DNA of 64,000 nucleotides from positions 179,118,001 to 179,182,000 of the forward strand of contig OZ024741.1 of NCBI GenBank assembly GCA_964016885.1, read 5' to 3'. Positions 17,990 through 29,629 of this stretch are shown here, one piece after another; positions within the stretch are counted from its first letter, which is position 1, and each line of letters begins with the position of its first letter. Source of the DNA: Eledone cirrhosa (Eukaryota). The notes under the pieces were generated by a model, which saw only the letters and a list, made by a program, of their open reading frames with translations, did not search any database and had not been told where the DNA came from. A program made the translations under genes and the position numbers.

Positions 17990-18150
17990 TAGGGGGTGCG
18001 TGGCTCTGATGATCGCCAAACAGCATGAAAGAGATTTTTCGCCGAAAAGAAGTGACATAGTCACTACTTTAAAAACGATAGCGTATGGTCTTCTAAATGT
18101 TTTTAATTAAACATACGGTATATTGCCAAATATACTATACATACATTCAT
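17990..18150 (+). mobile_element. Short hammerhead-bearing element; related copies on the minus strand at 29455-29640 and 29770-29850
   Basis: ggct CTGATGA tcgccaaacagcat GAAA..TC gcc; shared tail TCTTCTAAATGTTTTTAATTAAACATACGGTATATTGCCAAATATA ending in (TA)n. Confidence 0.75.
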
Positions 18151-18268
18151 ATATATATATATATATATATATATATAACGAAGGAGTTTTGGTAAGGAAC
18201 CAGATGGACCATAACGCACCAGAGTACTCAATACTTAGGGTAGTAGAGTGGGTAATAGGAAAATGTTT

Positions 18269-18365
18269 AACCCCGACGGCAGAGCTCAAGCTGTTTCGAC
18301 GGCTATTTCTGCACTAAATTAGAATTTTTAGCGTGGTAAATAAATAGCCGACTTTTCAAGGGGTA
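18269..18365 (-). ncRNA. Hammerhead ribozyme, U3A8 variant, extended stem II
   Basis: cccc TTGAAAA gtCGGCTATTT..AAATAGCCGtc GAAAC agc ttGAGCTCt gcc GTC gggg. Confidence 0.8.
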
Positions 18366-20247
18366 ATTCCTTATATGGGAAGATTGTAGTTGTCAAAAGG
18401 ATTGGTCAAAATTTCTTGTAAACACAATTAAATCTTTCATGGCAGTGGGTGGCTGGTGTGGGTGGCTGAATTTGCCTGTAGAACAATGAGGGAGTGGGTG
18501 GAGCCGGTCAAGCGTTGAAAAGGAGGATGTTGCAGCCATTGTCTACCCACCCGGGTCATGGGGTGGCGAGGTAAGTCCTACGCAATCGCTGTTTATATGC
18601 AGATACAAGTTCGTCTTTTTTGTTTAGGAATTGGTCCTTCGTAAACAGCATTTGTAATGTTTCCTCCGAGCATAAGTTACAGGGACGGCGTCCTCCTGTG
18701 TAGGAGTTAGCCCTGGACAGTAAGCTCCAAGTAAGATTGTATGTTATGTTATTATCTTGGAGGTCCCAGATGTGACCCGAAAGTGTAGTGGCATGTCACC
18801 TGTCCGGGTTTCGGAACGTATGTCGGTGTTGGTTGAACCGGGTCTTAAAGTCACAAGCGGTTAATTCTATATAGGCTTTGTTGGAGGTTTCCGTCCTCAC
18901 GTTGCATTGGTAGATCACGTTACGTTCGCGGCATCTGTTGTTGAGGGGGCACATAGATCTATCAGGACAGTTACACCTCCTGGTCGGCTCTCCACTAATG
19001 CCTGGGTTGTTTATTCCAAAGCGGTTGAGTTTCTTGTTGTTTGAGGAGGCGATGTTTTGTGCGAAGTTCGGTGTGGTGCTGTAGGAGAGTTTGATGGTAT
19101 TTTTGTTGATTATGTTGTGGTAGCGGTGTTGTGGTGGGAAGTGTTTTTCGGGGAGCCTAAAGAAGATTTTCCCGATAGGTGTTGCCACCTCAGCATTGTG
19201 GGGAGGGTTGAACCACGTTACGTGGCGTGAGCGGCGGCGTCGCCTGCTGGTTCCGCTAAGGTAAGCTGGATAAAAGGAGATTTCCTCCCCAAGCCGCTTC
19301 GCTTGAGGGCCTGGTTATAATGAGGCGCATGTTCATCGAATATCTGCTCATTATCGGACAAGCGAGATATGTGGAGGGAAATGCTTTTAACCAGGTTATT
19401 GGTAATGTTTCTAGGGTGGTTACAGCGGTGGTGGATGTAGTGCAGGTTGTCGTCCGTGTAACTTATGCTCGGAGGAAACATTACAAATGCTGTTTACGAA
19501 GGACCATCTCCTAAACAAAAAAGACGAACTTGTAATTGCATGTAAACACCGATTGCGTAGGACTTACCTCGCCCTCAACCCCCCATGACCCGGGTGGTTA
19601 GACAATGGCTGCAACATCCTTCTTTTCCCCACTTGCCGAACAAGATAGGGGAAACCCCAGCTAACATAGGTAGATGTACATCTTTTCTTTTCCTTTTTTC
19701 TTTTCTTCTTCCCTTTATCTCTTCCTATCACTTCCTTCCACTCCTTCTCCTCTTCCTTTTCCTTTTTCCTCTTTCACCTACCCCGAGCCAGCCCATCGGG
19801 CTTTTGTAGCCTCAGTACTCCTACCCCAGTAAATTATATATAGCATTGGCCGAAAACGCAATGCCAACTAAATATAGCAGCTGCTTTAGACTCTAGAGAT
19901 TGTTTTATTACTTTTTACTATTCAATTTTAATATTTTTATATATTTTTTTATTTATTTATTATCTTTTAATCTCAATTTATTTACCTTTTCTATAACGTC
20001 CCCTCTCTAATTTCTGCAGAATCCTTTTTCGCCTGCTTCCTAACTAGCCTAATTTCATACACACTCCTTAGAATTTGCTGTATAGAATTCACTTTCAACG
20101 CTTGACCGGCTCCACCCACTCTCTCATTGTTCTACAGGCAAGTTCAGCTACCCCCACCTCCCACCCACTGCCATGACAGATTGAATTGTGTTTACAAGAA
20201 ATTTTGACCAATCCTATTGACAACTACAATCTTCCCATATAAGAAAT

Positions 20248-28236: not shown

Positions 28237-28341
28237 TGTTTCTACTTTAGGCACAAGGCCAGCAATTACCCAGTGCATTACTGGTACTTTATTTTATCGA
28301 CCCCGTAAGGATGAAAGGCAAAGTCAACCTCGGCGGGATTT
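28237..28341 (-). mobile_element. 5'-truncated Nin/Deu-like SINE with 12-bp TSD
   Basis: TSD AGAAGAAATAAT at 28225-28236 and 28342-28353. Confidence 0.9.
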
Positions 28342-29587
28342 AGAAGAAATAATGTTGTTGAAATGAATGTGTATAATACACAAGAATCTAGCAAAAGACA
28401 TTAATGTTTAATGACGCATCAAACTTAAATAGAGATACACAGAAACCAGTAGCCGGCGATTAAGAATTAAAAAAGCAATTTCTCAGCGGGTGACCAATTT
28501 CATCTCGGTTAAAGTTAATCGAGTTGAGATGAAACTGGTCAATTAGTGTAGGGAGTCACACTTTCAATTCTCGCAATAAAAATATATATTCTATATATAG
28601 AGAGAGTTCTCTTCAAGTTTGCTGCACGTAGGTCTACTATAGTCGCGAGTTGACCAATTCCTAGGTAATGGAATTAAGTAGATAGAAACTGAAGAAGATA
28701 TAAATATATATATATGTGTGGGGGGGGGTATGTCTGTATGTCTGTATGTCTGTATGTTTGTCTGTTTATGTCCCGTAACTTAGCAGTTCAACAAGAAATA
28801 GACCGATAAAAGAAGTACTAGACTTGAAAGAATACTGGTGTCGATATGATCAACTAATTCAAGGCGATGCCCCAGCATGGCCAGAGTTTACTGACTAAAG
28901 TATATATATATATATATATATGTGTGTGTGTGTGTGTGTGTGTGGCTGTCTGTCTATCTGTGTGTGTGTGTGTGCGTATCATTTACTCAGTAAACACAGG
29001 CCATGCCGAGGCACCACCTTGATTTAGTTGATCATATCGATATATATATAGGGTAAAGAGCCCCTTCACGAATGACCATGGGATTTGCGCCTAGAAAGTT
29101 CTCCCTCCGAGGAACAAGTCCGAGCAGTATTGTTTATGGAAGACCAACAGTCGCCCATGCATACCAGTCGCCCCTCTCTACGCCACCAAGGTTGTCCGAG
29201 GGAAAAGTAAAAGACGAAACAACTTTTAAGACCCTTTTCCCGCTATTTCAAGCGTTAAACTAATATATTCCTTCCATATACTGTACCGATTGTGTTGTTA
29301 TTTCTGTTTACCTTTTACATATATATATATATATATATATATATGTGTGTGTGTGTGTGTGTGTCAGGATGGATTTAGTTTGAAACTGGTTAGACCATTA
29401 CTAAAGAGAGTACTCGATACTTGGAGTTATAGAGTATTTATATATATATATGTATATAAGAATGTATGTATGTATATATTTGGCAATATACCGTATGTTT
29501 AATTAAAAACATTTAGAAGACCATTCGCTATCAATTTTAAAGTAGTTACTATGTCACTTACTTATTTTCGGCAAAGGAACGGTGAGT

Positions 29588-29629
29588 GGCTGACAGTCTG
29601 TTTCTCGCTGTTTGGCGTTTATCAAAACC
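29588..29629 (-). ncRNA. Minimal hammerhead ribozyme, U3A8 variant
   Basis: ggtt TTGATAA aCGC caaaca GCGa GAAAC agact GTC agcc. Confidence 0.72.

What the first reader, a model, noticed from the sequence alone, without database searches (positions are those of the whole stretch)
18002..29629. Natural C3G8/U3A8 compensatory swap between two copies of one ribozyme family
Seen: the homologous elements at 17990 (+) and 29588 (-) share loop CGCCAAACAGC and the tail, but one core reads CTGATGA and the other TTGATAA; only positions 3 and 8 differ. U3A8 cores also occur in three other families (924 TTGAAAA, 1693 TTGATAA, and all three Naiad-like pLTRs TTGAAAA). Known: 3-8 is a Watson-Crick pair in the active HHR, and U3A8 is a rarer functional variant. 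Inference: the cores are under selection for catalysis, and CUGANGA-only searches would miss a large fraction of HHRs here.
Basis: partly seen in the sequence, partly recalled or inferred. Interest (0 to 1): 0.72.

Follow-up and report, generated by a model that had tools for sequence, protein, structure and literature searches.

The report
Hammerhead U3-A8 variant in mobile repeats
Two copies of a small, abundant jumping repeat carry the two known versions of one base pair in the core of a predicted self-cutting RNA (hammerhead ribozyme); the swap is real and likely kept by selection, but it was already published in 2011 and 2014, and one of the two copies is broken.

Summary
The core difference is real: C3G8 at 18006 (+), U3A8 at 29625 (-), in two members of one ~316-nt non-coding repeat family. 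It is not a clean two-copy swap. The copies differ at 11 of 46 ribozyme positions, both have a mismatch at 10.1-11.1, and the C3G8 copy has lost its cleavage site and 3' helix I strand. Reads show both alleles are common in the family (G8: 192 of 296 reads; C3: 190-216 of 285), so they mark amplified subfamilies rather than decay of single copies. All 6 of 6 haplotypes showing both positions are Watson-Crick, but per-copy linkage could not be counted. The three 'Naiad-like' pLTRs belong to a Hydra-type Penelope-like element. Natural U3-A8 covariation was reported in PMC3088659. This scan noted similar hammerhead mini-elements on other DNA. Verdict: known phenomenon, new example family.

The parts
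17991..18148 (+). E1: 5'-truncated copy of the repeat family between (GT)n/(AT)n tracts; C3G8 hammerhead remnant plus tail; ~22-nt gap after about 18034 removes the cleavage site and 3' helix I strand
18006..18012 (+). E1 core CTGATGA (C3 = 18006, G8 = 18011); 10.1-11.1 is U.U and 10.2-11.2 is C.A
29461..29776 (-). E2: full ~316-nt unit (36% GC, no coding match): head with small hairpins, type I hammerhead at the tip of a long predicted rod, tail running into (TA)n
   Evidence: (rod z = -4.6)
29777..29848 (-). Partial second copy of the tail upstream of E2 (period 316 nt), giving tail-head-hammerhead-tail
29619..29625 (-). E2 core TTGATAA (U3 = 29625, A8 = 29620)
29588..29618 (-). E2 helix II (3 bp plus A.A at 10.1-11.1, 6-nt loop), GAAA 29604-29601, self-complementary helix III 29601-29593, C17 at 29592, 3' helix I strand
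18191..18520 (-). pLTR of the Hydra-type Penelope-like element; U3A8 hammerhead, core 18359-18353, long helix II
20093..20423 (+). pLTR copy; U3A8 hammerhead, core 20254-20260, 5-bp helix III with GUC
23122..23372 (+). pLTR copy; U3A8 hammerhead, core 23267-23273
20557..22613 (+). Broken ORF of a Penelope-like element with RT then C-terminal GIY-YIG endonuclease; RWR 20635, DKT 20879, YRDD 21573, CxCx5C 22273, YIG 22372
18601..19215 (-). Inverted, 5'-truncated endonuclease end of the same element
924..978 (+). U3A8 hammerhead-like motif: perfect 7-bp helix II, helix III with one mismatch and GUC, helix I does not close; no detectable homology to the pLTR family
1693..1731 (-). U3A8 minimal hammerhead-like motif (core 1727-1721): U.U plus 4-bp helix II, palindromic helix III, weak helix I; single copy, may be chance

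Best explanation
The two sites are copies from sister subfamilies of an abundant ~316-nt non-coding repeat with a type I hammerhead motif, likely a non-autonomous retrozyme-type element moved by Penelope-like proteins, in which C3G8 and U3A8 are two likely functional versions of the same core pair. Shown: homology, the unit and partial tandem, the hammerhead anatomy of E2, the breakage of E1, both alleles at high frequency, and only Watson-Crick phased haplotypes. Inferred: transcripts cleave after C17, probably as dimers through the self-complementary helix III; the cut unit circularises or is reverse-transcribed and inserted into (TA)n tracts by a Penelope-like RT/endonuclease; transition mutations supply C3U and G8A, and only master copies with a restored pair amplify well. 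E1 itself is a dead copy, and E2 carries a minority A at 11.1 that probably weakens it.
For: (4 runs laid on 29490-29760 at 80% likeness). G8: 192 of 296 reads in X11; depth 1088.6 of 3403.9 and 38 contigs in X1. C3: 88 of 157 aligned reads plus 128 clipped reads whose consensus starts with the C3 letter (190-216 of 285); 16 + 21 contigs in X1. Most laid X1 records are 90-99% alike to E2, so alleles at 32-65% are unlikely to be per-copy decay (inference); neither site is a CpG. Of 21 loose-end rows shown, 4 span both positions: 3 U3A8 and 1 C3G8, each at about the expected place and with different helix I flanks; with E1 and E2 that is 6 of 6 Watson-Crick. The majority letter at 11.1 is U (336 of 562 reads; 79% of X1 depth), which pairs with A10.1. 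A 3/8-blind descriptor gave 10 window hits (7 C3G8, 2 U3A8, 1 A3C8, 0 U3G8, 0 C3A8; shuffle mean 1.5). Helix III self-dimer -6.9 kcal/mol. One X1 contig joins head back to tail (table 5). PMC3088659 states that covarying 3-8 ribozymes are active in vitro.
Against: Allele frequencies are marginals: equal C3 and G8 shares are also compatible with equal numbers of both single mutants. In X1 the aligned-only C3 share (9.7%) is far below G8 (32%) and is reconciled only by adding clipped contigs. X11 is a reduced-representation library in which 94% of laid reads run on unlike the stretch and position 3 has only 9 read starts. 84 variant rows and 307 loose-end rows were hidden. The X7 haplotypes are single contigs. 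The phased haplotypes are related by descent. The looser scan gave 2 C3A8 hits among 14 (shuffle mean 0.6 for that class, 7.8 in all). The hammerhead fold of E2 lies 6.7 kcal/mol above its predicted minimum, in which U3 is mispaired. No cleavage or expression data.
Confidence: 0.7

Rival explanations
1. The family is the hammerhead-bearing end (pLTR) of an autonomous Penelope-like element, and E1/E2 are truncated or gutted copies of it, not a self-standing retrozyme. The reading of the 3-8 pair is unchanged.
For: Partial-tandem arrangement with a tail and insertion into (TA)n is the Penelope-like pattern. E2 abuts the truncated 5' end of a Penelope-like ORF at 29886 in opposite orientation. 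Palindromic short helix III is typical of PLE hammerheads.
Against: The neighbouring ORF (29886-32002) does not carry this sequence at its 3' end. In E2 the tail joins straight to the head with no coding remnant (0 hits against 120 proteins of one PLE clade only). One X1 contig shows a head-to-tail joint.
Confidence: 0.2
2. One founder copy happened to carry both transitions and was amplified regardless of ribozyme activity (hitch-hiking); U3A8 is linked like any other subfamily marker and is not evidence of selection on catalysis.
For: Neighbouring non-core sites vary at similar frequencies (2.1: 28%, 2.2: 33% of X1 depth). E1 and E2 differ at 24% of ribozyme positions. PLE hammerheads cleave poorly in vitro.
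Against: U3A8 occurs with at least three different helix I flanks in the family and in a second species label, and in an unrelated pLTR family whose three copies keep the rest of the core. No single mutant was seen in any phased haplotype.
Confidence: 0.08
3. Neutral AT-ward decay in individual dead copies produced U3A8 by chance.
For: Both changes are transitions towards A/T in an AT-rich window. Both copies show other decay.
Against: Allele shares of 32-65% against roughly 1-10% divergence of most laid X1 records from E2; a 124-read loose-end consensus (agreement 0.95) is U3A8; three pLTR copies share U3A8.
Confidence: 0.02

Closest known systems
U3-A8 hammerheads of Cercyon Penelope-like elements in Schistosoma mansoni (Cervera and de la Pena 2014, PMC4209133; parts 1-2 of 4 of the text read)
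   Same: U3-A8 instead of C3-G8 in PLE-linked type I hammerheads; missed by the standard descriptor; about 1,300 hits beside about 2,000 canonical ones, close to the 6 of 17 here.
   Different: There the motifs are minimal hammerheads of an autonomous PLE family; here both cores occur inside one non-coding ~316-nt family with a 4-bp helix II and long helix I, and U3A8 also occurs in a Hydra-type element.
Natural C3-G8 to U3-A8 covariation (Perreault et al. 2011, PMC3088659; passages read)
   Same: The same pair and the same swap, described in several natural hammerheads, and stated to be active in vitro.
   Different: Scattered examples; the passages read give no within-family population data.
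Animal non-LTR retrozymes (Cervera and de la Pena 2020, PMC7229834; passages read)
   Same: 150-450 bp repeats of under 45% GC with a type I hammerhead and short helix III; a U.U mismatch at the base of helix II is described in axolotl.
   Different: Here only a partial tandem is seen and circular RNA is untested; the passages read do not mention U3-A8 ('covariation' 0 occurrences).
Hydra clade of C-terminal EN+ Penelope-like elements (Craig et al. 2021, PMC8557442; section 11 and passages read, supplement searched by 4 terms only)
   Same: RT then GIY-YIG, RWK-like motif, DKT, CxCx5C linker, under 3 kb, (TA)n insertion, hammerhead in the pLTR.
   Different: The paper reports canonical hammerheads; 12 related loci fetched here gave 17 C3G8 hits and no U3A8, whereas this element has U3A8 and a long helix II.

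Membership tests
Type I hammerhead ribozyme (E2, 29625) | Core U4 G5 A6, A9, G12 A13 A14 A15.1, U16.1 H17 with a Watson-Crick 3-8 pair | tested here: met
Type I hammerhead ribozyme (E2, 29625) | Three helices can form around the core | tested here: inconclusive
   Helix II pair probabilities 0.92-0.94, but 10.1-11.1 is A.A and the monomer hammerhead fold is 6.7 kcal/mol above the minimum; dimer pairing is possible.
Type I hammerhead ribozyme (E1, 18006) | NUH cleavage site and closing helix I | tested here: not met
   Lost in a ~22-nt gap
Type I hammerhead ribozyme | Match to an Rfam hammerhead model | tested here: not met
   No hammerhead family among 103 matches at E up to 1; the window's well-formed C3G8 motifs were missed too, so this says little.
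Type I hammerhead ribozyme | Self-cleavage | not testable with these tools
   Needs an in vitro assay
Non-LTR retrozyme | 150-450 bp non-coding unit, under 45% GC, with a type I hammerhead | tested here: met
   316 nt, 36% GC, no protein match
Non-LTR retrozyme | Tandem head-to-tail repeats | tested here: inconclusive
   Partial tandem in E2 and one contig joint
Non-LTR retrozyme | Expressed as circular RNA | not testable with these tools
   No RNA run was available to lay
Naiad PLE (element at 20557-22613) | N-terminal GIY-YIG before RT; DKA motif; no canonical hammerhead | tested here: not met
   RT precedes the endonuclease, the motif is DKT, a full hammerhead is present
Hydra-clade PLE (element at 20557-22613) | C-terminal GIY-YIG, RWK-like motif, DKT, CxCx5C linker | tested here: met
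   All four in the window; in 75 full-length homologs DKT 64, CxCx5C 67, RW[KR] 56
Hydra-clade PLE (element at 20557-22613) | Placement in the Hydra clade on an RT tree; absence of the CCHH motif | not tested
   No reference Hydra sequences were aligned

The most novel reading that the evidence does not exclude
The 3-8 pair has switched more than once inside this one family, and U3A8 has been fixed independently in several unrelated mobile families of the same genome, because dimer cleavage lets a copy with a broken core be cut by a partner and so survive the single-mutant step. The family would then be a natural, countable record of compensatory valley-crossing in a catalytic RNA core.
Probability: 0.15. 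Interest if true: 0.55.

Novelty: new member of a known kind. Interest (0 to 1): 0.22.

Why it matters
It is a further natural case of the hammerhead 3-8 pair covarying, and a reminder that ribozyme censuses in invertebrate genomes need a YUGANRA descriptor (6 of 17 motif copies in this window would be missed otherwise). Both points are in print. What is left is a high-copy family carrying both cores, which could make the route of a compensatory change in a catalytic core countable, and a U3A8 hammerhead in a Hydra-type element.

Tried and rejected
No whole genome is held, so no per-copy count. Rfam gave no hammerhead match, only microsatellite-driven miRNA hits. The repeat finder was swamped by (TA)n. 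Family motifs were absent from metagenome contigs, viral contigs and genome contigs. The PLE alignment found nothing in viral contigs. No RNA holder listed; this is no evidence on expression. X5 had no depth over the ribozyme. Read ends in X11 at 29501, 29679-29681 and 29736 fall on AATT sites and were rejected as element boundaries. Homology of the 924 region to the pLTR family was rejected (score 29, shuffle mean 27.4). E2 as pLTR of the adjacent ORF was rejected. No tRNA gene in the window. PMC1986816 and PMC5785218 are not held and nothing is taken from them. Paper searches: 'U3A8' 0 papers, 'U3-A8' 1, 'C3-G8' 2; searches listed no description of this family (listings only). Earlier scan notes by sequence: none.

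Full report
Setting. The window is AT-rich, microsatellite-dense eukaryotic DNA full of broken retroelements.

The observation. E1 has CTGATGA at 18006-18012 (+) and E2 has TTGATAA at 29625-29619 (-). They are homologous: the tails are 88.8% identical over 116 nt, and a 26-nt tail motif occurs 3 times in the window against 0 in 100 shuffles. Within the heptamer only positions 3 and 8 differ. Across the ribozyme, 11 of 46 positions differ, 6 by transition. Position 10.1-11.1 is U.U in E1 and A.A in E2. E1 has a gap of about 22 nt that removes U16.1, H17 and the 3' strand of helix I, and no substitute partner longer than 3 pairs lies within 18032-18400. The C3G8 copy is therefore the broken one, and the pair alone cannot show selection.

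Anatomy of E2. The tail is duplicated 316 nt upstream, giving tail-head-hammerhead-tail; the unit is 36% GC and has no match to 120 Penelope-like proteins of one clade. The hammerhead sits at the tip of a long predicted rod (-34.1 kcal/mol, z = -4.6 against 200 shuffles). Helix II has 3 firm pairs and a 6-nt loop. Helix III is self-complementary (duplex -6.9 kcal/mol) and ends in GUC. The monomer hammerhead fold is 6.7 kcal/mol above the predicted minimum, which fits dimer-dependent cleavage as described for such motifs but also fits a weakened copy.

The family in reads. Four of 13 listed runs were laid on 29490-29760 at 80% likeness. In X1, which may be the source sample, summed depth is about 1-3.4 x 10^5 on most of the flanks and 1.8-9.8 x 10^3 on the ribozyme, against 4-15 for the single contigs listed. 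The tool warns this is no copy number; I infer only that the family is very abundant and that most copies carry other ribozyme modules. G8 is read in 192 of 296 reads in X11 and in 1088.6 of 3403.9 depth (38 contigs) in X1. C3 is read in 88 of 157 aligned reads and 196.7 of 2031.7 depth (16 contigs). A further 128 reads and 21 contigs are clipped at 29624, and their consensus begins with the C3 letter and E1-like flank. Adding them gives 190-216 of 285 reads and 37 contigs, close to the G8 figures. Among the 40 variant rows shown (84 hidden), 3 and 8 are the only core positions. The majority letter at 11.1 is U, so the usual state is probably an A-U pair and E2's mismatch is a minority state. 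Of 21 loose-end rows shown (307 hidden), 4 span both positions: U3A8 in X11 (124 reads, agreement 0.95), U3A8 in X1 (24 contigs, agreement 0.56), and one U3A8 and one C3G8 contig in X7, another species label. With E1 and E2, 6 of 6 phased haplotypes are Watson-Crick, on several different helix I flanks.

Limits of that evidence. Marginal shares cannot exclude equal numbers of both single mutants. X11 is a reduced-representation library with 94% of laid reads running on unlike the stretch and few read starts. The haplotypes share descent. Sites 2.1 and 2.2 vary at similar frequencies (28%, 33%), so subfamily structure alone links markers. A loose scan gave 2 C3A8 hits among 14, with a shuffle mean of 0.6 for that class and 7.8 overall. 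A stricter 3/8-blind descriptor gave 10 hits (7 C3G8, 2 U3A8, 1 A3C8; shuffle mean 1.5), and it missed E1, 924 and the three pLTR motifs.

The other U3A8 motifs. The three pLTR copies (18359, 20254, 23267) share TTGAAAA, a long helix II and GUC; their hammerhead folds lie 0.9, 0.7 and 4.1 kcal/mol above the minimum. They count as one family. Their element has RT before a GIY-YIG endonuclease, with RWR, DKT and CxCx5C motifs. These match the Hydra clade and exclude Naiad, which has an N-terminal endonuclease and lacks canonical hammerheads (PMC8557442); no tree was built. In 14 loci fetched with an alignment of 33 homologs (12 strong, likely host DNA in bacterial bins; 2 weak), the descriptor found 20 hits: 17 C3G8, 0 U3A8, 3 others, shuffle mean 1.4. 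So U3A8 is likely the derived state here. Motif 924 has a perfect 7-bp helix II but no closing helix I. Motif 1727 is a lone minimal motif that may be chance. By hand curation 6 of 17 hammerhead-like copies in the window are U3A8.

Mechanism. Shown: the sequence anatomy, allele frequencies and phased haplotypes above. Established: C3-G8 is a Watson-Crick pair of the active fold (PMC3884650, passages), and covarying ribozymes are active in vitro (PMC3088659, passages). Inferred: transcripts cleave after C17, probably as dimers; the unit is mobilised into (TA)n by Penelope-like RT/endonuclease; selection acts on master copies that amplify, so mutation supplies both transitions and only restored pairs spread; inserted copies then decay, as E1 and E2 have.

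Prior art. PMC3088659 (2011) reports C3-G8 covarying to U3-A8 in several natural hammerheads. PMC4209133 (2014) reports U3-A8 in Cercyon Penelope-like elements of Schistosoma mansoni, found because the descriptor had missed it, with about 1,300 hits beside about 2,000. The unit resembles animal non-LTR retrozymes (PMC7229834). Searches listed no description of this family, but two relevant papers are not held and the PMC8557442 supplement was searched by four terms only, so U3A8 in Hydra-clade elements may be recorded there.

Verdict. The phenomenon is known; the family is a new example. Interest 0.22.

Noticed in passing
window 45105-45482, 46490-46685, 51930-52060: A C3G8 hammerhead family: an inverted pair at 45218 (-) and 45336 (+) forming a ~317-bp palindrome, a decayed copy at 46535 and a related motif at 51959; palindromic helix III.
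   Followed up: partly
window 47052 (-), 49194 (+), 53061 (-): C3G8 minimal hammerheads with a UU site in the pLTRs of a second Penelope-like element (ORF about 53270-56790, minus strand, DKS motif, C-terminal endonuclease).
   Followed up: partly
window 57618 (+): Well-formed single C3G8 type I hammerhead with an 8-bp helix III and 6-bp helix I; likely able to fold as a monomer.
   Followed up: no
window 32286 (+), 58482 (+): C3G8 cores with 6-bp helix II but decayed helix III and helix I; family with further partial copies near 50137 and 58243-58726.
   Followed up: partly
window 29570-29650: Read depth falls one to two orders of magnitude over the ribozyme while both flanks stay high: the family keeps its flanks and varies its hammerhead module, with at least four helix I types in loose ends.
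   Followed up: partly
window 18013-18026 and 29618-29605: E1 and E2 share a loop II letter that is the minority in reads (84% of X1 depth has the other letter), although their helix I flanks belong to different subfamilies; possible recombination or recurrence.
   Followed up: no
window 28490 (+): A G3-C8 core followed by a strong hairpin (-13.1 kcal/mol) and GAAA, also a Watson-Crick 3-8 combination, but no helix I or III was found.
   Followed up: no
window 10839-15410 (-): Non-LTR retrotransposon with AP-endonuclease and RT domains; a partial second copy at 8801-10154.
   Followed up: no
window 5190-5381 and about 12 other sites: A ~190-bp SINE-like family at 80-99% identity.
   Followed up: no
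L001-L012: Penelope-like elements, most with hammerheads, inside bacterial genome bins; likely host DNA contamination.
   Followed up: partly
proteins: Dozens of ~700-aa Hydra-type proteins sit on contigs of only 2.2-2.9 kb, about one element long; some could be unit-length transcripts or circles.
   Followed up: no
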